Shown piece by piece: positions 5,847 through 58,902 of a stretch of 64,000 nt of DNA. The notes under the pieces are model-generated. The model was not told the DNA's origin. It worked only from the letters and a program-made list of their open reading frames with translations, and searched no databases. Source of the DNA: an uncultured Clostridia bacterium (lineage in GTDB: Bacteria; Bacillota; Clostridia; Oscillospirales; Butyricicoccaceae). Where the stretch lies: the NCBI GenBank assembly GCA_947648385.1, contig CANSNO010000002.1:482-64481 (forward strand), given 5' to 3'. A program made the position numbers and the translations under genes. How positions within the stretch are numbered: position 1 is the first letter of the stretch; every line of letters starts with the position of its first letter.

Positions 5847-6914
5847 ATGGAAAGAAAACAATATAAAATGCAAAAAAAATTACTGCTCTCACTCTGTCTG
5901 GCGGCATCAGTCCTGCTGTCCTCCTGCGGAGCCGAAGAGACGAGCCGTAACGGCCCTCTGAGCCGCAGATATTATCACTATTTTGACACGGTTTCCACCG
6001 TTTATTGCTACGGAAGCGCGTCCGACGAGGAGTTTGGGAAAAACGTCGACGAAATTTCGACTATATTGGAAAAATATCATATATTCTTTGACATTTATCA
6101 CGAGTACAGCGGCGTTACAAATCTCTGCACAATCAATAAAAACGCCGGAGGAGAGCCGCTGGCCGTCGACCCCGAGCTTTTCGATTTCCTGCGTCTTTGC
6201 ATAGGGCTTTATGACGAGACGGACGGAAAAATGAACGTTATGATGGGCTCTGTGCTGTCCCTGTGGCACGACTGCCGCCAAGAGGCGTCAGGCCACCCCG
6301 AAAACGCGTCGATCCCATCTGATGAACGGCTTGCCGAGGCGGCAAAGCACACCGACATAACCCTTTTGGAGCTTGATGAAAGCAATTTGACCGTCAGGAT
6401 TTCCGACCCTCTGGCCTCGATAGACGTGGGGGCAGTGGGCAAGGGCTATGCCGCCGAAAGGGCCGCCGATTATTTAAGGACGGCGGAGGGCGGCGAGAAC
6501 TATGTCCTCGATATCGGCGGCAATCTGAGAATAATGGGGGCAAAGCCCGACGGCTCCCCCTACCGCGCCGCCGTCAAAGACCCGATGAATCCCGACGGGG
6601 CGGCCGCCGCCGTCTTGAGCCTTGAGGACGTTTCCTGCGTCACGTCGGGGGTATATGAAAGGTATTTTACTGTGGACGGCCGGAGCTACCACCATATCAT
6701 CGACCCCGACACCCTTTATCCCTCCGAAAGGTTCCTTTCGGTCACGGTCGTCGCCCGTGACAGCGGTTCGGCCGACGCCCTTTCGACGGCCCTTTTCTGC
6801 ATGAGCCTTGAGGAGGGAATGGCCCTTGCCGGGGAAAGGGGCGATTTTCAGGCATTGTGGATAACTCCCGACGGCCGACTTCACATGACCGACGGGCTTG
6901 TCATGGCTCAATGA
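5847..6914 (+). CDS. apbE: FAD:protein FMN transferase (ApbE family) lipoprotein
   Basis: Lipobox LLSSCG. ApbE motifs IDVGAVGKGYAAERAADYL, TSGVYERYF and SYHHIIDPDT. An alternative start lies at 5868. Confidence 0.85.
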   Translation: MERKQYKMQKKLLLSLCLAASVLLSSCGAEETSRNGPLSRRYYHYFDTVSTVYCYGSASDEEFGKNVDEISTILEKYHIFFDIYHEYSGVTNLCTINKNAGGEPLAVDPELFDFLRLCIGLYDETDGKMNVMMGSVLSLWHDCRQEASGHPENASIPSDERLAEAAKHTDITLLELDESNLTVRISDPLASIDVGAVGKGYAAERAADYLRTAEGGENYVLDIGGNLRIMGAKPDGSPYRAAVKDPMNPDGAAAAVLSLEDVSCVTSGVYERYFTVDGRSYHHIIDPDTLYPSERFLSVTVVARDSGSADALSTALFCMSLEEGMALAGERGDFQALWITPDGRLHMTDGLVMAQ

Positions 6915-6937
6915 CCGTGAAAAAGGAGAGCTTGCAG

Positions 6938-7309
6938 ATGATGAAAGGAAGCGGAACAAGATTTGCCGATATCCTGCTGATAGGGGGGCTGCTGGCGGCC
7001 TCCCTGCTGTGGCTTTTTGTATCGAGGGCCGACGGAACCGAGGGCGGCATGGCGGTTGTCGCCGTAAACGGACAGGAGACGGGCCGCTATCCGCTGGATA
7101 CGGAGGGCGAGGTTGCCCTCAACGGGGGGACAAACATACTTGTAATCGAGGACGGAAAGGCGCGCGTCTCCGATGCCGACTGTCCCGACAAGCTCTGCGT
7201 CCGTCAGGGAGAAATATACCGCACGGGACAGACAGTGACCTGCCTGCCCAACCGCCTGACGGTCACCATAGAGGGGAAAAAGGGGGAGGCCGACCTCTAT
7301 CTGCCATGA
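6938..7309 (+). CDS. NusG domain II-containing membrane-anchored protein
   Basis: AAAAGGAGAG lies 7 nt before ATG 6938. One TM segment, then a beta-rich domain with CPDKLC..G; this family usually follows ApbE-type genes. The track ORF start at 6857 overlaps apbE and is unlikely. Confidence 0.65.
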   Translation: MMKGSGTRFADILLIGGLLAASLLWLFVSRADGTEGGMAVVAVNGQETGRYPLDTEGEVALNGGTNILVIEDGKARVSDADCPDKLCVRQGEIYRTGQTVTCLPNRLTVTIEGKKGEADLYLP

Positions 7310-7794
7310 AGACGAGAAAATTGACGACGCTGGCCCTGACACTATCTGCGGCCATGATACTTTCGTATATTGAGGGCACCCTGCCGCCCTTTATGCCTTT
7401 GCCCATGGCAAAAATCGGGCTGGCCAATATCGCCGTGCTTTTCGCCCTTTACAGGCTGGGCGCGTGGGAAGCGGCCTGTGTCTCTCTGGCCAGAGTCACT
7501 ATGATGTTCATGATGTTCGGCACGGGAGTCAGCTTTATTTACAGTCTTGCCGGGGCGGCGGTCAGCTTTATGGGGATGGCTCTGCTCAAAAAAAGCCGCC
7601 TTTTCTCCCCTGCCGCCGTCAGCGTCGGGGGCGGAGTGCTTCACAACTGCGGACAGATACTTGCGGCGCGCTTTATGCTGTCCACCGATGCGGTGGTTTA
7701 TTATATGCCGGCGCTGATGGTCAGCGGAGTTTTATCGGGAGCCGCCGTGGGAGCCGCCTGTTCTGTGATTTTAAACCGCGTCGGAGTTAAATAA
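7306..7794 (+). CDS. Gx transporter family protein (former heptaprenyl diphosphate synthase component I-like)
   Basis: ATGA start/stop overlap with the upstream gene. MKTRKLTTLALTLSAAMILSYIEGTLPPFMPLPMAKIGLANI, polytopic membrane protein. The longer track ORF 6898..7794 is a frame read-through. Confidence 0.7.
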   Translation: MKTRKLTTLALTLSAAMILSYIEGTLPPFMPLPMAKIGLANIAVLFALYRLGAWEAACVSLARVTMMFMMFGTGVSFIYSLAGAAVSFMGMALLKKSRLFSPAAVSVGGGVLHNCGQILAARFMLSTDAVVYYMPALMVSGVLSGAAVGAACSVILNRVGVK

Positions 7795-7877
7795 AGTCCA
7801 TTATGCCCGCCTGACGGCGGAAGAAGGTCGTTCTTTTGTAAACACAAAAGAACCAAAAAGCAATTTGTAAAAATTTG

Positions 7878-7906
7878 TTGACAAATTGTGAATGCTATGC
7901 TATCAT
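7878..7906 (+). promoter_or_regulatory. Sigma-A type promoter of the riboswitch-led operon
   Basis: TTGACA (7878-7883), 17 nt spacer, TATCAT (7901-7906). Confidence 0.55.
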
Positions 7907-7929
7907 CTACCCATACCTCACATTTACTT

Positions 7930-8066
7930 ATGAGGTAGAGGTCGCGTTTGCTATCAGTAATTCCGCGGAGGCCGAAAGCCTGAGATACGGAACGAAAGGA
8001 GCCGACGCCGAAATCGCGTGTCAAAAGCGCGGTTGGGCTTGCGTTAAACAGGCGCAAGACTGTCTT
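7930..8066 (+). promoter_or_regulatory. Lysine riboswitch (L-box) aptamer, candidate
   Basis: Ordered core blocks are GGTAGAGGTCGCG, CAGTAA, GAAAGGAGCCGACGCCGAAA, TTGGG and ACTGTC. They match the B. subtilis lysC leader pattern ATAGAGGTGCG..AGTA..GAAAGGGGAGCGTCGCCGAAG..CTGTCA. GGUAG/CUGUC can close P1. Confidence 0.7.
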
Positions 8067-8154
8067 TGACGGATTTACCGCCCGTCAAAGGAGAGCTATC
8101 CCAGGGTAAGATGTGTCGGGTATAATACTATTCGTATATGATTTGTCATATTCG

Positions 8155-8192
8155 TCCATGTGTTATCTTGACGCATGGACTTTTTTGTTGTT
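8155..8192 (+). terminator. Terminator-like hairpin in the leader, possibly the riboswitch expression platform
   Basis: GTCCATG-13 nt loop-CATGGAC followed by TTTTTTGTTGTT, about 55 nt before the transporter start. Confidence 0.5.
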
Positions 8193-8245
8193 CAAAAAAG
8201 CCCCCGGGAAAATTAACAGGTAAGACAAAAACGGAGGTTTTCCAA

Positions 8246-9658
8246 ATGTCAAACAACAGAACGGGCTTTAAAATGCCCCACAACTATGTGGTCATTTTCA
8301 GCATCATCATTCTCGCCGCGGTGCTGACATGGCTCATCCCGGCCGGTTCCTATGACCGCGAGGTCAACGAGGCCGGCAGGACCGTCGTCGTCGACGGCTC
8401 CTTCCACTATACCGAGGCAACCCCCGTCGGCCCCTTCAAGCTCTTTGAGAGCATGGCTCAGGGCTTCAACGAGGTCGCCGACATCATTTTCTTCATCATC
8501 TTTGCCTACGCGTGGATAAACATTCTGCTTTTAAACGGCACCTTCAACGCCATGGTGGGCGGCATAATGCGCTCGCTGGGAGATAAGGTCGAGTTTCTGA
8601 TACCCGTGCTGATGATATGCTTTGGTATTCTCGGCTCGACGATGGGTATGTCGGAGGAGACATACGGCCTTATCCCCGTATTTGTCGGCATCGCCGTCGC
8701 TCTGGGCTATGACGCCATCGTCGGCGGAGCCATGGTCTATGTCGGCGTCGCCACGGGATTCGCCTCGGCCACACTCAACCCCTTCACCATCGGCGTCGCC
8801 ATGGGTATCGCCGGGGTCGAGTATCCCTACGGCCTTATTTTCCGTATAATCATTCTGGTCGTCTTTGAGGCTGTCGCTATTTTCTATGTCTGGCGCTATG
8901 CAAGAAAGGTCCACGCCGACCCGACAAAGTCCCTCCTTTACGGCACAAAGCTCGACCTCAAAATCACCGCCAGCCGCGAGGAGCTGGAAAAAGCCCACAT
9001 GAACGGCAGGCAGAAGCTCTGCTGTCTGGCTTTCCTTGTGACGGTATTCTTCATAGTTTACGGCACAACGATGTGGGGCTGGTACATAAACGAGCTTTCG
9101 GCCCTCTTTATCGTCTCCATGCTGGTAACGGCCATAATAGGCGGCGGCATGGGACCCAATGACATCGCCAACTCCTTTGTCCAGGCGGCTCGCGACATGA
9201 TGTTCGGCGCTTTGGTCGTCGGCCTGTCCCGCGGCATAGTCGTCGTGCTGACAAACGGCGGCGTCATCGACACCATCATCTATGGCCTCTCGCTGCCTCT
9301 GGCCAAAATGTCCCACGCCCTGGGCGCCCTTTCAAAATATGTCTGCGCCGTCGGTATGCTGCTGGTGCAGAACATCATCAACTGCTTCATCGGCTCCGGT
9401 TCGGGACAGGCCAGCGCCGTCATGCCCATCATGGCCCCCCTGTCCGACCTTATCGGCATATCCCGTCAGACGGCCGTTCTGGCCTTCCAGTTCGGCGACG
9501 GCTATTCCAATATGTTCTGGCCCAACGGAATATTCCTTGTTTCGGGCCTGATGAACATTCCGGCCAACAAGTGGTTCAGGTTCGTCGCCCCCCTGTTCGG
9601 TGTCATGCTTGTTTTCCAGATGATTTTCATGTGCATTGCTGTCGGAATCGGATTTTAA
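8246..9658 (+). CDS. YfcC-family (DcuC-like / putative basic amino acid antiporter) membrane transporter
   Basis: ACGGAGG RBS before ATG 8246. MSNNRTGFKMPHNYVVIFSIIILAAVLTWLIPAGSYD is the typical YfcC N-terminus, and the protein is polytopic throughout. The track start at 8138 lies inside the leader terminator. Confidence 0.85.
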   Translation: MSNNRTGFKMPHNYVVIFSIIILAAVLTWLIPAGSYDREVNEAGRTVVVDGSFHYTEATPVGPFKLFESMAQGFNEVADIIFFIIFAYAWINILLLNGTFNAMVGGIMRSLGDKVEFLIPVLMICFGILGSTMGMSEETYGLIPVFVGIAVALGYDAIVGGAMVYVGVATGFASATLNPFTIGVAMGIAGVEYPYGLIFRIIILVVFEAVAIFYVWRYARKVHADPTKSLLYGTKLDLKITASREELEKAHMNGRQKLCCLAFLVTVFFIVYGTTMWGWYINELSALFIVSMLVTAIIGGGMGPNDIANSFVQAARDMMFGALVVGLSRGIVVVLTNGGVIDTIIYGLSLPLAKMSHALGALSKYVCAVGMLLVQNIINCFIGSGSGQASAVMPIMAPLSDLIGISRQTAVLAFQFGDGYSNMFWPNGIFLVSGLMNIPANKWFRFVAPLFGVMLVFQMIFMCIAVGIGF

Positions 9659-9676
9659 AGAAAGGCGGATATTAAA

Positions 9677-31445: not shown

Positions 31446-31537
31446 GGAGCGGTATCGAAGTGGTCATAACGGCCCCGACTCGAAATCGGGTAAACCTGTA
31501 AAAAGGTCCGTGGGTTCGAATCCCACCCGCTCCGCCA
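31446..31537 (+). tRNA. tRNA-Ser (anticodon CGA), CCA encoded
   Basis: Folded by hand. Acceptor stem GGAGCGG/CCGCTCC, anticodon stem CCCGA/TCGGG with loop CU-CGA-AA, a long variable arm (ACC..GGT), T arm GTGGG-TTCGAAT-CCCAC, and discriminator G plus CCA. Confidence 0.9.
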
Positions 31538-31701
31538 TACCCCGCGAGGTTTGATATTCAAGCCTCGAGGGGTTTTTCCTTATTTGTCAAGCGATACGGC
31601 GATTGTTTCAATGTAAAAAACTTGGGAACATATGTTTTGAAAAATGTCTTAAAAGCAACTGAAAAATAAATTATGCAACTCGAAAAGCAACTCGCACAGG
31701 G

Positions 31702-32751
31702 TCAGCGGTCATCGTTTGAAGCGGCCTTGCCGAGCAGGATATCAGTGTGAGAGAGGATCCTGTCGTTGAACACATTAAGGCTCTCGGGAAATATATGACT
31801 GTACACCTTGTCCACCATGGCGGTGGAGCTGTGCCCCATCATAATTGCCATGTATTTTGAAGGTATGCCCTCAAGGGAGCCCATAGAGGCAAAATAATGG
31901 CGTAAATCGTGGAAACGGCAATGCGGAAGTCCTGCGGAAGCCAAGAGGCGAAGCCATTTGCTGGTCAAATTGGATGGGTCTATGGCGCATACCATATCTG
32001 AGTCTCCCCTTTTTAGGACACGCAGTCTGTCGGCCAGCGCTTTGGAGCATCCGACTTCACGGTAACCGGCATAAGATTTAGGCTGCTTGACAGTGTACCC
32101 GTCAGGGCCTCGTACAACAGCGTTTTTAACGGTCACATGGGTATCGTCGATATCCTGCCATTTGAGGGCGCATATCTCGGAGCGGCGCAGGCCGCACTGT
32201 GACGCCAGCAAAAAGGGTATCTCCATATCCGTATCCTTGACCACATCATATATTTTGCTTATCTCTTCAGGCGTGGGTATATGTAAATCGGGCTTTTTTC
32301 TCGCCGGAAGAGTGATATCAAAGCGAAGCTCCGGCGTAAACATTTTCAGAGTGGAAGTAAGCACCCCAAAAATATTTCGTACCGTCTTTGGCGACAAGGC
32401 TGACGCTTCAAAATTGATGGCTCTCTGTACAGTCTCGGCTGTCAGCGACGAGAGGCGCGCATCTCTGAGGCCTGCCAGGCGGTTGCGTCGTATGCTCAAA
32501 TACCCCTTGAGTGTCGACGGCGATACAATGTTGCGTTTGCTGTCGATATACTTGTCAATAGCCTCGCCGACAGTCATGGCGGACGGGTCGCCGTCATTGT
32601 GATTGGTGGCGGCGTATTCCGACGCCGCAAACTCGGCCTCCCTGCGGCTGTCGGCTGTGAAGGATCTATATATCCTTTTGCCGTTTTCATCCTTGCCTGT
32701 GTAGAGCAGGACGCGCCACCTTCCGGAGGGGGTCTTTTTTGCTTTTGCCAT
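31702..32751 (-). CDS. Tyrosine-type site-specific integrase
   Basis: SAM-like N-domain, then catalytic residues in LRRSEICAL (Arg), HDLRH and GHSS...Y (His-x-x-Arg, Tyr in VYSHI). Confidence 0.9.
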   Translation of the reverse strand: MAKAKKTPSGRWRVLLYTGKDENGKRIYRSFTADSRREAEFAASEYAATNHNDGDPSAMTVGEAIDKYIDSKRNIVSPSTLKGYLSIRRNRLAGLRDARLSSLTAETVQRAINFEASALSPKTVRNIFGVLTSTLKMFTPELRFDITLPARKKPDLHIPTPEEISKIYDVVKDTDMEIPFLLASQCGLRRSEICALKWQDIDDTHVTVKNAVVRGPDGYTVKQPKSYAGYREVGCSKALADRLRVLKRGDSDMVCAIDPSNLTSKWLRLLASAGLPHCRFHDLRHYFASMGSLEGIPSKYMAIMMGHSSTAMVDKVYSHIFPESLNVFNDRILSHTDILLGKAASNDDR

Positions 32752-53918: not shown

Positions 53919-54868
53919 ATGGCCGTAAGAACAATATCGACAAAACTTGCCATTGAGGGCGAAAACGAGTATCGCCGCACGGTCGGCAATATAAATAACT
54001 CTCTCAAAAGTATGCAGTCGGAAATGAGCCTCCTTGAGGCCCGTTACGCGGGTCAGATGTCCTCACAGCAGGCGCTGGCCGAGAAAAGCAGCCTACTGAC
54101 AAAGCAGATTGATTTGCAAAATCAAAAGAGAGACCAGACGAGGGCCGGGCTGAAAAACGCCGAGGAAGCTATGAAAAGGCACGGCGACGCGGTTGATGAT
54201 TGTACCCGCAAAATAGCTGAGGCCGAAGCCCAGCTTGAAAAGCTCGACAAGGCTTCAGCCGGAGCTAAGGAGAGCCAGAAAAAGCTCAACGCCGATATAA
54301 AGCAATATCAAAAAGAGCAGGAGACGGCCAAGGCCAAGCAGGACGCGGCGGCCAAAGGCGTCGAGGAGTGGCAGCGAAAGCTCAATCTGGCCGAGGCCGA
54401 CCTGATAAAGGTAAATAACGCCCTTGACGAGACAAATAAGAGCCTCAGCCGTTTTACTGCCGAGACACTCAAAAAGAGCGGCGAGACTCTCTCAAATGTG
54501 GGCAACAAGCTGACCATGGGTCTGACATTGCCCCTTACGGCGGCGGGAACTGCGGCCGTCAACTACGCCAGCGAAACCGAGGAGTCGGTCAACAAGGTCA
54601 ACGAGGCCTTCGGCTCGTCGGCGTCGGTCATACAAAAGTGGTCGGAGGGGACCCTGACCTCTATCGGTCTGGCGCGAGGCACGGCCCTTGATATGGCCGC
54701 CCTTTACGGCGACATGGCCACATCTATGGGTCTCGGCACCGACAAGGCCGCCGAGATGTCAAAGGAGCTTGTCAATCTGGCCGCCGATCTGGCATCTTTT
54801 AAAAACATCTCCATCGAGCAGGCCAACACGGCCTTAAAATCCATATTTACCGGCGAGACCGAAAGCCT
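53919..54868 (+). CDS. Tail tape measure protein, exon 1
   Basis: Coiled-coil N-terminus, then the TP901-type core ...FKNISIEQANTALKSIFTGETESL. The unspliced frame stops at 54893 after 8 extra codons. Confidence 0.85.
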
Positions 54869-56231
54869 GAGATTTTGGGCGGCCACAGCGTGAGCTATGG
54901 CAAAAAATATCCGGTGAACGCACGCAAAAGCGGTGTGTGGGGGGTGCCCCGCGCTAACGGTGAACTCTAAAGTTGATTTATGGGTGAAACGGAGTTATAA
55001 TATATTCCGAAAAGGATGTGTTATAATGACAAAATTAAAGTTTCCCGAAGAAAAAAAGTATTATGTGTATGAGTGGTATATTATAAAAACAGGAGAAGTG
55101 TTTTATGTAGGCAAAGGATGCCGAGACCGTTGGAAAACCCGAAAAAGGGAAAATCATTATTTTATGAAAATGCTTGAAAACCATGATTGTGATGTGCGAA
55201 AAATTGCCGAGGGCTTATCTGAACAGGAGGCCTTCGAGCTGGAAATTGCCCGAATTAAGTTTTATCGGGAAAATACCGATTTTCGTCTCACAAATATACT
55301 GGATGGCGGAGAGCAGCCTCCGGTAATGCGCGGAGACAGTAGCCCGACAAAACGACCAGATGTGCGAGAGAGAATAAGTAGTGCGCTTTCAAATCTTTAT
55401 AGTAGGGAACCTTATCGTAGAAAAACTGTTTCTCAAAGAATGAAGTTGTTCTATTCCAGTGACGAGGGTAAGCAAACGGCTCAAAAAAGGAGCCAGACGG
55501 TTATGTCTGACCCTATTATCAAAGAAAAAATTAAGCAGAGCAATCTTCGTTTTTGGGATGACCCGAAGAAAAAAGACGAAAAGTCTAAAATTATGAAAGC
55601 TGCTTATGCGTCTCCGGAGGTCAGAGCTAAAATCACGGGCAAAAACAACGGGGCGTCAAGAACAATAAAGCAATATGATTTAGATGGCAAATACTTGGCT
55701 ACATATGAAACACTTATTGAAGCAGAGGCTAAAACAGGTGTTAGCTACAAAAGCATTTCCAAGGCGCTCAGGGGACATAGAAAGACAGCGGGCGGCTTTA
55801 TGTGGCAATTCGCTGATGGTAAAACGATTACTTATTCCAAAAGACGGCCTTATAAGGTAAAGCCTGAGAGAAACAGACGAAAAGTTGCCCAGTATTCCCT
55901 TGATGGCAATTTGATAGCCGTTTATGAATCTCTTGAGGATGCCACAGTAAAAAATGATTTTCATACGCATACGAACATAAGCGCAAATCTGAGCGGCCGG
56001 ACAAAGTCGGCCTATGGATTTGTGTGGCGATACTATAATCAACCATGAGAATACCGTGCCAAGCCCAAAGGAAGCCGCAGCATTGCGGCTTTTTCTTTTG
56101 GGAAGGTGTAACGACTAACCCGAATGGGTGTAGGGCGGAGACTAGCGCCGCCCGAAGTGCCGGACCTCTCAAGGAGAGGAAGAGATAGTCTAAACCCCTA
56201 AAAAATATCGGGAAACCGAGGGTAGTAATTG
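54869..56231 (+). mobile_element. Group I intron (1363 nt) with an internal GIY-YIG homing endonuclease ORF
   Basis: The 5' exon ends in U. GGGC (54877-54880) can form P1 with a G-U wobble. An R-like element GTAACGACTAAC (56108-56119) and an S-like element AGAGATAGTCTA (56181-56192) form P7 (GACTA/TAGTC). The P8 hairpin is CCTCT/AGAGG (56165-56179). The terminal nucleotide is G 56231, and the segment is low in GC. Confidence 0.8.
55026..56048 (+). CDS. GIY-YIG homing endonuclease with NUMOD3-type repeats
   Basis: YVYEWYIIKTGEVFYVGKG...R is the GIY-YIG motif. NUMOD3-like repeats are RPDVRERISSAL, PIIKEKIKQSNL and SPEVRAKITGKN. Two C-terminal HTH-like repeats are ISKALRG..KTAGGFMW and ISANLSG..KSAYGFVW. 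Confidence 0.85.
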   Translation: MTKLKFPEEKKYYVYEWYIIKTGEVFYVGKGCRDRWKTRKRENHYFMKMLENHDCDVRKIAEGLSEQEAFELEIARIKFYRENTDFRLTNILDGGEQPPVMRGDSSPTKRPDVRERISSALSNLYSREPYRRKTVSQRMKLFYSSDEGKQTAQKRSQTVMSDPIIKEKIKQSNLRFWDDPKKKDEKSKIMKAAYASPEVRAKITGKNNGASRTIKQYDLDGKYLATYETLIEAEAKTGVSYKSISKALRGHRKTAGGFMWQFADGKTITYSKRRPYKVKPERNRRKVAQYSLDGNLIAVYESLEDATVKNDFHTHTNISANLSGRTKSAYGFVWRYYNQP

Positions 56232-58902
56232 AAAAAACCTCGGCATAGTCATGACCGAGACCAACCTCAAGGCCTTCGCCCTTGAGCAGGGCTGGACAAA
56301 GCAGTACAAGGAGCTCGACCAGCTGGAAAAAATGCAGCTGAGGTATCAGTATGTGCTGGCCAATACGACAAACGCCCAGGGCGACTTTGCCCGAACAAGC
56401 GACGGCTATGCAAACTCGGCCAGAATACTCAAGGAATCGCTCAAGGAAGCGGCTGCCACCATGGGCGAGGAGCTTTTGCCTGTTGTGACGCCTCTTATAG
56501 GCCGCCTGTCCGAGTTGGTACAGCACTTTGCCGACATGGACGAGGGCACCCGAAAGGCCCTTGTGACGGCCGGTCTGTTTTTGGCAACTCTCGGCCCGGC
56601 AACCAAGCTGACGGGCGGGCTGACCTCAGCCCTCGGGGCCGGAATAAGCGCCTATAAGGGCCTCAAGGAGGCCCAGGCGGCGGCCACGGCAGGGCAAAGC
56701 CTGTTCAACACGGCCATCGGCATGAGCACAAATCCCCTCGGGGCCATTGTCACAGGAGTCGGCGCTGTCATCAGCGTGCTGGCCGCCCTTTCGGCGGCTA
56801 TGGCGCTCGCGGGGGACGGCACGGACAGCTACGGCGAGAAGGTAAAGGAGTTGACCGAGAGCCTTGAGGAGGCCCGTGAGGAGCGCCAAAAGGCCCTTGA
56901 GGAAATAGAAGAGGAAAAAGCCTCCACTCTTGATACGGTTGAGGCTTTGACAGATTTGGTCGATGCCGAGGAAAAGACGGTCGCGGAAAAGGAGACCATC
57001 AAAAAGCTGGTGGATGACCTCAATGAGAGCGTCCCCGGTCTGGCTCTGGCCTACGACGAACAGACCGACAGTCTTAACATGACCGCCGAGGCCGTCAGGG
57101 AGCTGGCCATTGCCGAGGCCGAGAGGGCGGCCCAAAAGCAGCTTATTGACAGTTTGGCCGAGGCATATACCGACCAGGCGAGGATAGACGCCGAGCTGGC
57201 GGAGGCCGAGGAACATCTGGCCGAGGTGCAGGGCAAATTGAGCGGCGCCATGCTTGAGGGCACCGGGGAGTCCGAGGGTTACAGCGCCGAGACCGAAAAA
57301 CTTTCACTTGAACTGTTGGAGGCGCAACAGAGCGTCGACAGGCTCAAGGACGCCCAGCAGGCCGCCAATAACGAGATAGCCGCGGCCGAGGACGCTCTTA
57401 ACAGATACACCCCTACAGTCAGTCAGCTTACCGCCACCGATGAGCAGCTCAAAGAAACGACCGACAGGCTGCTTAACGCCACCGAGGGCCTGACAGAGGC
57501 CGAAATAAATGAGCAGATAGCGGCCTTGCAGTCACAAAAGAGGTCGGCCGAGCTGAGGCTGGCCCGATTGCAGGAGGCCCAGAGCACAATGGGCGTCACC
57601 GGGGCCGTTTTGGCCCTTGCCAAGGCCTACGGTACAGAGAACAAGGCCCAGGCACAAATAGATTCGGCCAACGAGCAGATAGCCGCGCTGGAAAAGCTCA
57701 AGGCGTCGCTGAATAGTGCCAATAGCTCGACAGGCAGCAGCTCAAAAAAGGCCGCCAAGGAGATAGACAAGCAGACCGAGGCCTATAAAAAACAGCGCGA
57801 GGAGCTTGACCATCTGCTGACCATGGGCCAGATAAAGGAGGAGGAATATTATTCCCGCTTGGCCGAACTGAGGGACGAATACCTCTCTGACGACAAGCAC
57901 CTCTCCGATTACCGTAAGGTGACCGAGGAGATATATAAATACGACCAGAACCTTGCCGAAAAGGAAAAAGAGCTCTGGCGGGAGCAGACGGAAGAACTTG
58001 CCGAACAGCTCGAAGACCGTCTCGACGCCGTCACGGACAAGCAGCAGGATATGGAAAAGCGCCTGTCCGGCTATGGCGACCTGTTTGAGACCAACAAAAA
58101 GGGCAAAGTCAAGCTGGGCGACCTGCAAAAGCAGATTGACGCCATGGACGAATACGCCCAGACCCTTGATAAGCTCAAAGAGGCGGGGGTCAGTCAGGGC
58201 CTGATGGACGAGATTGCCTCCATGGACATCGACGAAGCTGTGGCCTACGGCAAAAAGCTCCTTGCAAAGAACGGCGAGGAGCTGGAAGAGTATGTCGCCC
58301 TGTGGGAGGAAAAGCAGGCCAAGGCCCTTGAGATATCCTCCCGCTTTTATTCGGAGGAGCTCAAAAAGATAGAGGAGGACTACAACGCCCAGCTGGGCGC
58401 GGCTCTCGATGTGCTGACCAACACGGCCTATCAGAGCGGCGTCGACACGGCCGAGGGGCTGCTCAAGGGCTTGGAGTCCAAGGAGAGAGAGCTTTACGCC
58501 AAGGCCGGCAGCATTGGCGCGGAAATAGCCAGACTTATGTCGGCGGCAGAGAAGCCCCTGACGGTGGACGGCTCCCACGCGGGCGGACTGCCTTATGTCC
58601 CCTTTGACGGGTATGTGGCCGAACTTCACCGCGGCGAAAGGGTGCTGACGGCCAAAGAGGCCCAGGAATATATTAGAACAAGTATTCCGTCAAGCCTTGA
58701 GGGCACGAAAAAGAGCGGCGCCGTCACAAAAGAGGGCCTCGGTCAAATGCTGGCCCAGACGGTCAACGCCCTTAATGTATCGTCGCCCCAGACAGGCAGT
58801 GGTGATTTGGTGATATCGGTGCCGGTCAACGGCGCCGAACTGGCCCGCGCCGTCATCAAGGATTTTCGTCAGGTCTCCCGCGCCGACCCCGAGGAGTTTT
58901 AA
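56232..58902 (+). CDS. Tail tape measure protein, exon 2
   Basis: Continues the frame as (L)KNLGIVMTETNLKAFALEQGW..., followed by long coiled coils. An in-frame stop at 56230-56232 in unspliced DNA bounds the exon. Confidence 0.85.

What the first reader, a model, noticed from the sequence alone, without database searches (positions are those of the whole stretch)
54869..56231. Group I intron with a GIY-YIG homing endonuclease splits the prophage tape-measure gene
The tape-measure ORF stops at 54893 and a second tape-measure-like ORF resumes at 56251, with a low-GC segment encoding a GIY-YIG/NUMOD3 protein in between. Splicing U54868|G54869 ... G56231|A56232 joins 950 + 2671 nt into one frame of 1207 codons. 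The junction peptide FTGETESL-KNLGIVMTETNLKAFALEQG rebuilds the conserved TP901-type tape-measure core. Group I hallmarks are visible: the 5' exon ends in U and can wobble-pair to GGGC (54877-54880) as P1, and the terminal nucleotide is G. R-like GTAACGACTAAC and S-like AGAGATAGTCTA elements form P7, with a P8 hairpin between them. Tape-measure length sets tail length, so tail assembly would depend on RNA splicing. From memory, self-splicing introns are documented in phage DNA-metabolism, lysin and terminase genes, and I do not recall a characterised one in a tape-measure gene.
Basis: partly seen in the sequence, partly recalled or inferred. Interest (0 to 1): 0.8.

Follow-up and report, generated by a model that had tools for sequence, protein, structure and literature searches.

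The report
Homing group I intron in tape-measure gene
A prophage's tail tape-measure gene is interrupted by a 1,363-base self-splicing-type (group I) intron that carries its own homing endonuclease gene; the call is well supported, but such introns in tape-measure genes have been reported several times, so it is a new example, not a new phenomenon.

Summary
ORF1 (53919-54893) and ORF2 (56251-58902) are two halves of one tape-measure protein (TMP). Removing 54869-56231 gives a stop-free 1,206-aa ORF. Its junction FTGETESL|KNLGIVMT matches the conserved motif of uninterrupted homologues without a gap.

The insert is a group I intron. An ORF-less 302-nt sibling at the same site in a 78%-identical TMP hits Rfam RF00028 over the full model (E=3e-6). 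At least 120 relatives share its core, and two tested relatives (L012, L021) pass the Rfam threshold. P3, P6, P8 and an extra hairpin covary strongly (96% paired, against 28-46% in slid controls). Two further diverged TMPs carry a homologous intron plus homologous endonuclease at the same motif.

The 340-aa intron ORF lies in the P5 loop. It has GIY-YIG hallmarks, seen by profile and fold but not by Pfam, plus NUMOD1 DNA-binding modules.

The window's own intron gets no significant Rfam hit, because the ORF splits it. Splicing is untested.

The novelty claim fails. TMP introns are published for phage JCL1032 (2004), Bacillus cereus-group prophages (2008) and Vibrio phage ICP1 (2023, splicing shown by RT-PCR). 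Verdict: real, well-formed, a new member of a known kind.

The parts
53919..54868 (+). Tape-measure gene, exon 1 (950 nt). The last 4 nt, GCCU (54865-54868), are the 5' strand of P1.
   Evidence: PHROG TMP families match. Conservation with homologues stops exactly after ...GETESL.
54869..56231 (+). Group I intron, 1,363 nt, IA-like, ending in G56231 (omega-G).
54873..54880 (+). Internal guide sequence. GGGC (54877-80) pairs with exon GCCU as P1, with a U-G wobble at the splice site. UUUU (54873-76) pairs with AAAA (56232-35) as P10.
   Evidence: P10 covaries with a synonymous exon change in L001 (CUUU/AAAG) and L226 (CUUUU/AAAAG).
54882..54901 (+). P2 hairpin with a GUGA tetraloop. The TGA stop of ORF1 (54891-93) is in this loop.
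   Evidence: The stem sequence differs completely in L001, L226 and L228, but each keeps a 6-8 bp stem with a GNRA loop.
54910..54916 (+). P3 5' strand, UCCGGUG. It pairs with 56158-56164.
   Evidence: about 55 introns, all 7-8 bp; 4 pairs with 18-24 double changes each and 0 broken.
54919..54952 (+). Two extra hairpins between P3 and P4: hp1 (54919-21 with 54930-32) and hp2 (54937-42 with 54947-52). An invariant GGUGU (54932-36) lies between them.
54957..54981 (+). P4 5' strand (54957-62), P5 5' strand (54965-67) and P5a 5' strand (54972-81).
54973..55001 (+). Sigma-70-like promoter for the endonuclease gene: TTGATT, 17-nt spacer, TATAAT (10 of 12 matches).
   Evidence: This is weak: 5 sites found against 2.4 +/- 1.9 in shuffles. 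A TATAAT box is conserved at the same place in L226 and L228.
54994..55027 (+). Hairpin that buries the endonuclease Shine-Dalgarno (GGA, 55014-16) and the first two bases of its AUG.
   Evidence: -14.9 kcal/mol, z = -3.99, 0 of 200 shuffles as stable.
55026..56048 (+). Homing endonuclease gene (340 aa): N-terminal GIY-YIG-like domain, helical repeats, then two NUMOD1/I-HmuI-like DNA-binding modules. It lies in the P5 terminal loop, and its stop codon (56046-48) lies in the P5 3' strand.
56035..56057 (+). P5a 3' strand (56035-43), P5 3' strand (56047-49) and P4 3' strand (56052-57, part of the Q-like element AAUACCGUGCCAAG).
56058..56107 (+). P6/P6a/P6b. The inner hairpin 56074-56089 followed by UUUUUCUUUU resembles an intrinsic terminator.
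   Evidence: Searches give a weak ctRNA-like hit on this hairpin.
56108..56153 (+). R element with the P7 5' strand GACUA (56113-17), then P7.1 (56118-29) and P7.2 (56133-53).
56158..56179 (+). P3 3' strand UGCCGGA (56158-64) and the P8 hairpin (56165-79).
56182..56231 (+). S element with the P7 3' strand UAGUC (56186-90), P9/P9a with a GAAA loop (56196-56222), and the terminal G56231.
   Evidence: this roughly 50-nt module is 86-96% identical to sequences in at least 225 phage records, mostly Herelleviridae. One is the 3' end of an HNH-bearing interruption of the Aerococcus phage AVP DNA polymerase gene.
56232..58902 (+). Tape-measure gene, exon 2 (2,671 nt). The six conserved codons KNLGIV (56233-56250) precede the first ATG and follow an in-frame TGA (56230-32), so they can be read only after splicing.

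Best explanation
Window 54869-56231 is a mobile group I intron of the phage IA type, with P7.1 and P7.2, inserted in the tape-measure gene of a tRNA-integrated siphovirus-like prophage.

Splicing (inferred). In the late transcript the intron folds. Exon GCCU pairs with the guide GGGC as P1, with a U-G wobble at the splice site. Exogenous guanosine attacks after U54868. P10 (UUUU with AAAA) aligns the 3' exon, and the exons are ligated after G56231. The result is one mRNA for a 1,206-aa tape-measure protein. Without splicing, translation would stop in the P2 loop after 324 aa. Exon 2 has no usable start for its first conserved codons, so making tails depends on RNA splicing.

Mobility (inferred). 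The P5 loop carries a 340-aa GIY-YIG-type endonuclease with NUMOD1 DNA-binding modules. It would cut intron-less tape-measure alleles near the conserved ...TGETESL|K... coding sequence during co-infection, and repair would copy the intron in (homing). A hairpin that hides its ribosome-binding site, together with an internal promoter-like site, suggests expression is restricted as for T4 I-TevI.

Shown here: exon collinearity, the RNA architecture and its covariation, the endonuclease's family features, and spread of this intron/endonuclease lineage among several diverged tape-measure genes.
For: 1) Exons. In-silico splicing gives a stop-free 1,206-aa ORF. The junction reproduces FTGETESLKNLG[IV]VMT of uninterrupted homologues with no gap. 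80 of 80 viral relatives and the Flavonifractor phage Cormatin TMP are collinear. PHROG 1535 matches ORF1 at profile positions 218-295 and ORF2 at 305-427. NF047706 aligns in one stretch across the junction.

2) RNA. The ORF-less 302-nt sibling at the same site (L001:2544-2845) hits RF00028 over model positions 1-253, at 31.7 bits and E=2.9e-6. Relatives that share the Q-R core score 63.9 and 69.8 bits, above the gathering score of 50. RNAalifold on a plain MAFFT alignment of 36 introns, including the window core, recovers P3, hp1, P4, P6 and P8. Of pair cells, 96.4% are paired against 28-46% in slid controls; the covariation score is 0.534 against 0.06-0.09; 0 of 500 shuffles reach it. P3 pairs in about 55 distinct introns with varied sequence. 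Unconstrained MFE folding of the sibling reproduces the group I topology.

3) Same site in other TMPs. L226 and L228 carry homologous introns (1,363 and 1,357 nt) plus endonucleases 56% and 41% identical (P0122, P0144). Each splices in silico to a collinear TMP. P1, P2, P3, P6, P7.1, P7.2, P8, P9 and P10 are kept through different sequences.

4) Endonuclease. Invariant family columns are YYVY...FYVGKG...R35...E73...N90. The family profile's best PDB hits are GIY-YIG proteins (9u7u, E=0.002; UvrC GIY-YIG, E=0.089) and the I-HmuI DNA-binding region. The AF2 model has pLDDT 89.6. Its top Foldseek hits are I-HmuI, GIY-YIG enzymes and UvrC GIY-YIG, at probability 0.95-1.0. NUMOD1 scores 2e-9.

5) Context. 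tRNA, integrase, TerL, portal, protease and capsid lie upstream. The same allele is seen on at least 10 contigs from several samples.

6) Expression signals.
Against: The window's own intron has no RF00028 hit at gathering, nor at E<=10 in a 1.5-kb search. Its 3' half alone gives 15.8 bits and E=0.059. The sibling's 31.7 bits is below the gathering score of 50.

P1 is only 4 bp. P2 has one C-A mismatch. P4 and P7 are invariant in the family set, partly because they were in the search pattern, so they carry no covariation evidence.

Two hairpins between P3 and P4 are not part of the Rfam consensus.

Pfam GIY-YIG (PF01541) does not hit the protein. The GIY-YIG profile and fold E-values are modest (0.002-0.1).

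A terminator-like hairpin in P6 (56074-56099) could reduce read-through into exon 2.

No RNA data: splicing, endonuclease activity and prophage viability are untested.
Confidence: 0.9

Rival explanations
1. Genes-in-pieces. A free-standing homing endonuclease cassette has split the tape-measure gene. The two halves are translated separately and work as a two-subunit tape measure, with no RNA splicing, as described for the mobE-split nrdA of phage Aeh1.
For: ORF2 has its own ATG at 56251. Gene callers annotate two ORFs on every contig. There is no significant Rfam hit on the window itself.
Against: About 310 nt of non-coding flanks form a covarying group I core. An ORF-less version of the insert still sits at the same site, which a free-standing HEG cannot explain. 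Six conserved codons, KNLGIV, lie between the predicted 3' splice site and the first ATG, directly after an in-frame TGA. No Shine-Dalgarno sequence is visible before ATG 56251.
Confidence: 0.03
2. A decayed intron in a defective prophage. The insert derives from a group I intron but no longer splices, for example because of the short P1, the P2 mismatch or the P6 terminator. The tape-measure gene is then a pseudogene.
For: P1 is 4 bp and P2 has a C-A mismatch. A terminator-like hairpin sits in P6. RF00028 scores are sub-threshold. No expression data exist.
Against: Every core helix is intact, and the window row forms 34 of the 35 family pairs. Both exons and the HEG ORF are free of stops. The identical allele recurs on at least 10 contigs from different samples. 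The same 4-bp P1 and the terminator-like P6 recur in diverged relatives L001/L226 and L226/L228 respectively, which argues for selection rather than decay. The phage module looks complete.
Confidence: 0.06
3. The intron splices, but the intron ORF is not an active GIY-YIG homing endonuclease. It could be a degenerate or purely DNA-binding (maturase-like or regulatory) protein, and the intron would then be inherited only vertically.
For: Pfam and NCBIfam find no GIY-YIG domain. Sequence and fold E-values to GIY-YIG structures are only 0.002-0.1. An ORF-less sibling shows the ORF is dispensable for intron persistence.
Against: The motif residues expected of a catalytic GIY-YIG domain (Tyr pair, Arg, Glu, Asn) are invariant across 37 homologues down to 29% identity. 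The ORF is intact in all copies. Homologous intron-plus-ORF units occupy the same motif in TMPs that share only about 50% identity, which fits repeated homing.
Confidence: 0.12

Closest known systems
Group I introns in tape-measure genes of Bacillus cereus-group prophages (TMP-IVS1, 2, 3a, 3b; Tourasse & Kolsto 2008, PMC2504315)
   Same: Group I introns of phage type (IA1/IA2) interrupt the TMP gene of integrated prophages at conserved sites. HEG-containing and HEG-less versions coexist. P1 and P10 are adapted to the site.
   Different: The host lineage differs: here the nearest isolate is a Flavonifractor phage, at only about 72% DNA identity. The insertion site is in a different TMP family. 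The only HEG reported in a Bacillus TMP intron is H-N-H, whereas this one is GIY-YIG-like. Sequence relatedness to those introns was not tested.
Vibrio phage ICP1 tape-measure introns (Barth et al. 2023, PMC10448857)
   Same: A TMP gene is fragmented by introns, one of which carries a homing endonuclease. Splicing restores a full-length TMP. The paper states that TMP is a frequently HEG-interrupted gene.
   Different: ICP1 has three introns and an HNH-3 HEG in a lytic myovirus of a Gram-negative host, and splicing was shown by RNA-seq and RT-PCR. Here there is one intron with a GIY-YIG-type HEG in a temperate phage, and no RNA data.
Lactobacillus delbrueckii phage JCL1032 self-splicing introns (Riipinen & Alatossava 2004, Arch Virol 149:2013)
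   Same: A group I intron in a late structural gene. PMC2504315 Table 3 lists the host gene as TMP. The title reports self-splicing (reference 64 of PMC6669764).
   Different: The paper itself is not in the library, so site, subgroup and ORF content could not be compared.
T4 td intron with I-TevI (GIY-YIG); Herelleviridae IA2 introns
   Same: IA-type core with P7.1/P7.2. The GIY-YIG HEG sits in a peripheral loop and its stop codon reaches into core structure. An RBS-occluding hairpin and an internal promoter-like site parallel I-TevI control (prior knowledge of T4). The P7'-P9-3' end module is 86-96% identical to Herelleviridae sequences.
   Different: The host gene is structural rather than nucleotide metabolism. 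The HEG is in P5 rather than P6. DNA binding uses NUMOD1 modules rather than the I-TevI zinc finger and helix-turn-helix. Two extra hairpins plus GGUGU lie between P3 and P4.

Membership tests
Group I intron (Rfam RF00028) | The 5' exon ends in U, which forms a U-G wobble with the internal guide sequence (P1). | tested here: met
   GCCU (54865-68) pairs with GGGC (54877-80). L001 and L226 are the same. L228 uses ACCGU/GCGG at a site shifted by 1 nt.
Group I intron (Rfam RF00028) | Terminal G (omega-G), with P10 pairing to the 3' exon. | tested here: met
   G56231. UUUU (54873-76) pairs with AAAA (56232-35). The pairing covaries with synonymous exon changes in L001 and L226.
Group I intron (Rfam RF00028) | Conserved core: the P4-P6 domain and the P3-P8 domain, with a P3/P7 pseudoknot and Q, R and S elements. 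| tested here: met
   All helices are present in the correct order. P3, P6 and P8 covary in 36 introns. P4 and P7 are invariant and therefore uninformative.
Group I intron (Rfam RF00028) | Covariance-model score at or above the Rfam gathering threshold (50 bits). | tested here: not met
   Window: no hit; the 3' half gives 15.8 bits, E=0.059. ORF-less sibling: 31.7 bits, E=2.9e-6. Relatives with the same core, L012 and L021, give 63.9 and 69.8 bits. The shortfall is attributed to the 1.05-kb P5 insert, the long P6 and the extra hairpins. A delta-ORF construct could not be submitted to cmscan.
Group I intron (Rfam RF00028) | Guanosine-dependent self-splicing with exon ligation. | not testable with these tools
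   Only in-silico ligation is possible. It restores a collinear ORF.
Subgroup IA (IA2-like, phage type) | Extra helices P7.1 and P7.2 between the P7 5' strand and the P3 3' strand. | tested here: met
   P7.1 is 56118-29 and P7.2 is 56133-53, and both covary in L001 and L228. L226 lacks P7.1.
Subgroup IA (IA2-like, phage type) | A short J3/4 directly joining P3 to P4. | tested here: not met
   About 40 nt lie between P3 and P4: two covarying hairpins and an invariant GGUGU. About 55 relatives share this. Canonical relatives such as L012 have GUGAAAACGGUG. Subgroup assignment against GISSD was not possible.
GIY-YIG homing endonuclease | GIY...YIG motif pair with downstream catalytic Arg, Glu and Asn. 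| tested here: met
   Y12-Y15 (YYVY), F26-Y27-x-G29-K30-G31, R35, E73 and N90 are invariant or at least 90% conserved in 37 homologues. The spacing resembles I-TevI R27/E75/N90 (prior knowledge).
GIY-YIG homing endonuclease | Significant match to the curated domain model (Pfam PF01541). | tested here: not met
   No hit even at E<=10. NCBIfam gives none.
GIY-YIG homing endonuclease | Profile or fold similarity to solved GIY-YIG domains. | tested here: inconclusive
   Profile against PDB: 9u7u, E=0.002; UvrC, E=0.089. Foldseek: GIY-YIG enzymes and UvrC among the top 7, at probability 0.95-1.0 but E=0.03-0.14 and low TM-scores, because the model is multi-domain.
GIY-YIG homing endonuclease | Modular DNA-binding region (NUMOD repeats). 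| tested here: met
   NUMOD1 (PF07453) at 2.3e-9 and I-HmuI NUMOD-like at 8e-6. NUMOD3 (PF07460) is found only in more distant homologues, not in this protein.
GIY-YIG homing endonuclease | Cleaves the intron-less allele and promotes homing. | not testable with these tools
   Indirect only: homologous HEG-plus-intron units sit at the same motif in four diverged TMP lineages, and there is one HEG-less copy.
Phage tail tape-measure protein | Homology to TMP families, with position in the tail module. | tested here: met
   Multiple PHROG TMP families match both halves. Sources name the homologues tape measure. The gene lies downstream of TerL, portal, protease and capsid. TIGR01760 (TP901 core) scores 26.6 bits against a cut-off of 28.8. 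Pfam gives no hit.

The most novel reading that the evidence does not exclude
The intron may belong to a large and possibly undescribed structural sub-class of IA group I introns. At least 55 distinct members appear in metagenomes. In them J3/4 is replaced by two covarying hairpins flanking an invariant GGUGU that could pair alternatively with the P3 3' strand. Within that sub-class, one intron/GIY-YIG lineage has specialised on the TGETE(S/P)L-coding motif of tape-measure genes and is spreading among diverged phages of gut Clostridia.
Probability: 0.25. Interest if true: 0.45.

Novelty: new member of a known kind. Interest (0 to 1): 0.25.

Why it matters
For annotation: this tape-measure gene, and its relatives on many metagenomic contigs, is routinely called as two unrelated ORFs plus a 'hypothetical protein'. 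Recognising the intron restores a single 1,206-aa TMP and therefore the correct tail-length inference.

For biology: it adds a clean case, with HEG-plus, HEG-minus and intron-less alleles all available, to the growing evidence that TMP genes are favoured homing sites. It also supplies a GIY-YIG/NUMOD1 endonuclease with a predictable target.

It does not open a new question. That tail assembly can depend on RNA splicing has already been shown experimentally for Vibrio phage ICP1.

Tried and rejected
1. Rfam on the whole window at gathering, and on 54800-56300 at E<=10: no group I hit. I rejected this as evidence of absence, because the ORF-less sibling and relatives do hit. A synthetic delta-ORF sequence cannot be given to cmscan.

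2. Pfam and NCBIfam for GIY-YIG, NUMOD3 and PF10145 on the separate and spliced proteins: no hits.

3. P0084, whose ORF ends at a different place, looked like a second intron site. Its contig shows two overlapping ORFs, so it is a frameshift and not an intron.

4. A scan of genome contigs (GTDB representatives) with the intron-core pattern found nothing. The host organism stays unidentified. Exact-protein look-ups returned no names. The Flavonifractor phage match is only about 72% identical.

5. The CM's own P3 assignment for L001 (AGUUG.../...CAGAC, with several non-canonical pairs) was rejected in favour of the upstream strand, which covaries.

6. A literature search for named P3.1/P3.2 helices in group I introns found nothing relevant.

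7. A custom covariance model was not built. Alignment A3 exceeds the 400-column limit, and the test would be partly circular because relatives were fetched with a pattern taken from the window.

8. A regex for a second R...S pair in the window found nothing, including the real one, because its gap range was too narrow. It is uninformative.
Full report
**Observation**

The sequence is as described. ORF1 runs 53919-54893 and ORF2 runs 56251-58902. A 340-aa ORF (ATG 55026 to 56048) lies between them, in a stretch whose GC drops to 0.33-0.47 against 0.51-0.66 outside.

Joining 53919-54868 to 56232-58902 gives 950 + 2,671 nt and 1,206 sense codons without a stop. The junction reads FTGETESL|KNLGIVMT.

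The surroundings are a prophage. A tRNA (31446-31534) is followed by an integrase on the minus strand, then DNA polymerase A, a VapE-like protein, the large terminase, portal, prohead protease and capsid.

**The two ORFs are one tape-measure gene**

- Both halves hit PHROG tape-measure families. For PHROG 1535, ORF1 covers profile positions 218-295 and ORF2 covers 305-427, which are adjacent segments.
- A search with the spliced junction peptide returned 263 proteins. Most cover 93-100% of the query in one piece.
- In the alignment, the spliced sequence reproduces the nearly invariant FTGETESLKxLG[IV]VMT block without a gap. ORF1 diverges into RFWAATA* exactly after ...ESL.
- All 80 best viral relatives are uninterrupted at this point. 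Some have the identical DNA GAAAGCCTAAAA.
- The nearest isolated phage, Flavonifractor phage Cormatin, has a single annotated tape-measure CDS. It aligns collinearly with the in-silico spliced window sequence.
- The six conserved codons KNLGIV (56233-56250) lie upstream of the first ATG of ORF2 and directly after an in-frame TGA (56230-56232). They cannot be translated unless the exons are joined.

**The insert is a group I intron**

The window itself gives no RF00028 hit at gathering, nor at E<=10 over 1.5 kb. Its 3' half alone gives a marginal, correctly placed hit: model positions 71-253, 15.8 bits, E=0.059.

The decisive evidence is comparative:

- A 78%-identical tape-measure gene (L001, also on three IMG/VR contigs) carries a 302-nt ORF-less version of the same insert at the same nucleotide position.
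- That copy matches RF00028 end to end, at 31.7 bits and E=2.9e-6.
- Its unconstrained MFE fold shows P2, then P3 enclosing P4-P5-P6, P7.1 and P7.2, then P8.
- A pattern taken from the Q and R elements retrieved 12 viral loci and at least 120 metagenomic loci, about 124 distinct introns.
- Two of these relatives score 63.9 and 69.8 bits, above the Rfam threshold.

Covariation is strong:

- On a plain MAFFT alignment of 36 of these introns, with the window's ORF cassette replaced by GAAA, RNAalifold independently predicts P3, an extra hairpin, P4, P6 and P8.
- Counting those pairs plus P7 gives 96.4% paired cells, against 28-46% when the partners are slid.
- The covariation score is 0.534 against 0.06-0.09, and no shuffle of 500 reaches it.
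- The four variable P3 pairs each show 18-24 double substitutions and none broken.
- P4 and P7 never vary, partly because they were in the search pattern, so they are neutral evidence.

**Anatomy in the window**

| Element | Coordinates | Note |
|---|---|---|
| P1 | 54865-68 / 54877-80 | U-G at the splice site |
| P10 | 54873-76 / 56232-35 | pairs guide with 3' exon |
| P2 | 54882-54901 | the GUGA loop holds ORF1's stop codon |
| P3 | 54910-16 / 56158-64 | |
| Extra hairpins + GGUGU | 54919-52 | between P3 and P4 |
| P4 | 54957-62 / 56052-57 | |
| P5/P5a | 54965-81 / 56035-49 | closes the loop that holds the endonuclease gene |
| P6 | 56058-56107 | |
| P7 | 56113-17 / 56186-90 | |
| P7.1 | 56118-29 | |
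| P7.2 | 56133-53 | |
| P8 | 56165-79 | |
| P9 | 56196-56222 | |
| omega-G | 56231 | |

The presence of P7.1 and P7.2 marks it as a phage-type IA intron. The last ~50 nt (P7', P9 and the 3' end) are 86-96% identical to sequences in at least 225 phage records, mostly Herelleviridae. One is the 3' end of the HNH-bearing interruption of the Aerococcus phage AVP DNA polymerase gene.

**The same intron/endonuclease lineage targets tape-measure genes repeatedly**

Homologues of the intron ORF, 56% and 41% identical, sit on contigs L226 and L228. There they lie between two tape-measure halves, inside introns of 1,363 and 1,357 nt with the same architecture.

Splicing them in silico by the same U|...G| rule gives collinear proteins...TGETESL|KKFGVVMT... 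and ...TGETEP|LRRYGLDL....

Across the four tape-measure-site introns, P2, P3, both extra hairpins, P6, P7.1, P7.2, P8 and P9 are maintained with different sequences. P10 tracks synonymous changes in the 3' exon.

Together with the ORF-less copy and the many empty sites, this is the pattern expected from a homing cycle of invasion, endonuclease loss and intron loss.

**The endonuclease**

- Pfam detects NUMOD1 (2e-9) and an I-HmuI NUMOD-like module, but no GIY-YIG or NUMOD3 domain.
- In an alignment of 37 homologues, the invariant or near-invariant columns are YYVY, FYVGKG, R35, E73 and N90. This is the GIY-YIG signature, with spacing close to that of I-TevI (prior knowledge).
- A profile of that alignment finds GIY-YIG proteins as best PDB matches (E=0.002), then UvrC's GIY-YIG domain and the I-HmuI DNA-binding part.
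- A confident AlphaFold model (pLDDT 89.6) gives the same three as top Foldseek hits, at high probability but modest E-values.
- I accept the GIY-YIG assignment at about 0.8.

The gene's last codons form the 3' strand of P5a, and its stop codon lies in P5.

Upstream, a stable hairpin (54994-55027, z = -3.99) sequesters the Shine-Dalgarno sequence and the AUG. A 10/12 sigma-70-like promoter (54973-55001) would start transcripts inside that hairpin and so free the ribosome-binding site. This resembles I-TevI control but is inference only.

**Rivals**

- A free-standing endonuclease creating a two-piece tape measure is contradicted by the structured flanks, the ORF-less sibling and the untranslatable conserved codons.
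- A decayed, non-splicing intron cannot be excluded without RNA data. All helices and ORFs are intact, and the allele recurs in at least 10 contigs.

**Novelty**

- Tourasse & Kolsto (2008) described IA1/IA2 group I introns at three sites in tape-measure genes of B. cereus, B. anthracis and B. weihenstephanensis prophages. One carries an HNH endonuclease. They also list phage JCL1032 as having a tape-measure intron.
- The JCL1032 introns were reported as self-splicing in 2004 (reference cited).
- Barth et al. (2023) showed by RNA-seq and RT-PCR that the ICP1 tape-measure transcript is spliced around an endonuclease-bearing intron. They call the tape measure a frequently interrupted gene.

This locus is therefore a well-documented new member of a known kind. 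The only possibly new aspect is the two-hairpin/GGUGU insertion between P3 and P4, shared by about 55 relatives. I could not check it against published subgroup models.

Noticed in passing
L021:907-6390 (minus strand; IMGVR_UViG_3300008513_000006, 118 kb): Eleven separate RF00028 group I intron hits, five of them above gathering (up to 89 bits), lie within about 5.5 kb. The exon ORFs between them belong to an anaerobic ribonucleotide reductase gene, nrdD, with an ATP-cone N-terminus, a Zn-ribbon and an RVCG C-terminus. One intron holds an HNH-like ORF. Eleven introns in one phage gene would be exceptional.
   Followed up: partly
window 54917-54956, and about 55 related introns (e.g. L129, L131, L186): Between P3 and P4 this intron sub-family has AAC, a covarying hairpin, an invariant GGUGU, a second variable hairpin, then GCUA, in place of a 3-nt J3/4. 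GGUGU could pair alternatively with the P3 3' strand (G[U/C]GCC). This is not in the Rfam consensus. I could not establish whether it has been described.
   Followed up: partly
window 56074-56099; also L226 and L228 P6: All three HEG-containing tape-measure introns have a GC-rich hairpin followed by a U-run, which looks like an intrinsic terminator, inside P6 just after the HEG stop codon. The ORF-less sibling has a plain 6-bp P6. If it is active, it would oppose read-through into exon 2.
   Followed up: no
window 54973-55028: A sigma-70-like promoter (TTGATT, 17-nt spacer, TATAAT) overlaps the 5' arm of a hairpin that hides the HEG ribosome-binding site and AUG. A TATAAT box recurs at the same place in L226 and L228. 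The arrangement resembles I-TevI regulation in T4.
   Followed up: partly
L228:2832-4188: In this diverged tape-measure gene the homologous intron sits 1 nt upstream of the window's position within the same Leu codon (CCG U|UA against CU|A). Its guide sequence is changed to match (ACCGU/GCGG).
   Followed up: partly
L001:3921-3923: Exon 2 of the tape-measure gene carrying the ORF-less intron has a single in-frame TAG, after which the same frame continues for 580 more codons. This could be stop-codon recoding, a suppressible mutation or a sequencing error.
   Followed up: no
L002:6001-9665: A 76%-identical tape-measure homologue is called as two ORFs that overlap by 4 nt (6001-6885 and 6882-9665). 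That indicates a frameshift within the gene, not an intron.
   Followed up: no
L013:about 8200-8500: In a related intron, an ORF ending ...NEFILKIYNN* lies directly upstream of GCUAACGGUG, between P3 and P4. This suggests the extra-hairpin region is an alternative landing site for endonuclease genes.
   Followed up: no
window 7928-8106 (+): Lysine riboswitch (RF00168, 104 bits) lies directly upstream of a DcuC/AbgT-type transporter ORF at 8138-9658.
   Followed up: no
window 31446-32751: A tRNA with a long variable arm (anticodon CGA, Ser) is followed by a minus-strand tyrosine integrase at 31702-32751. This is the likely left attachment site of the prophage.
   Followed up: no
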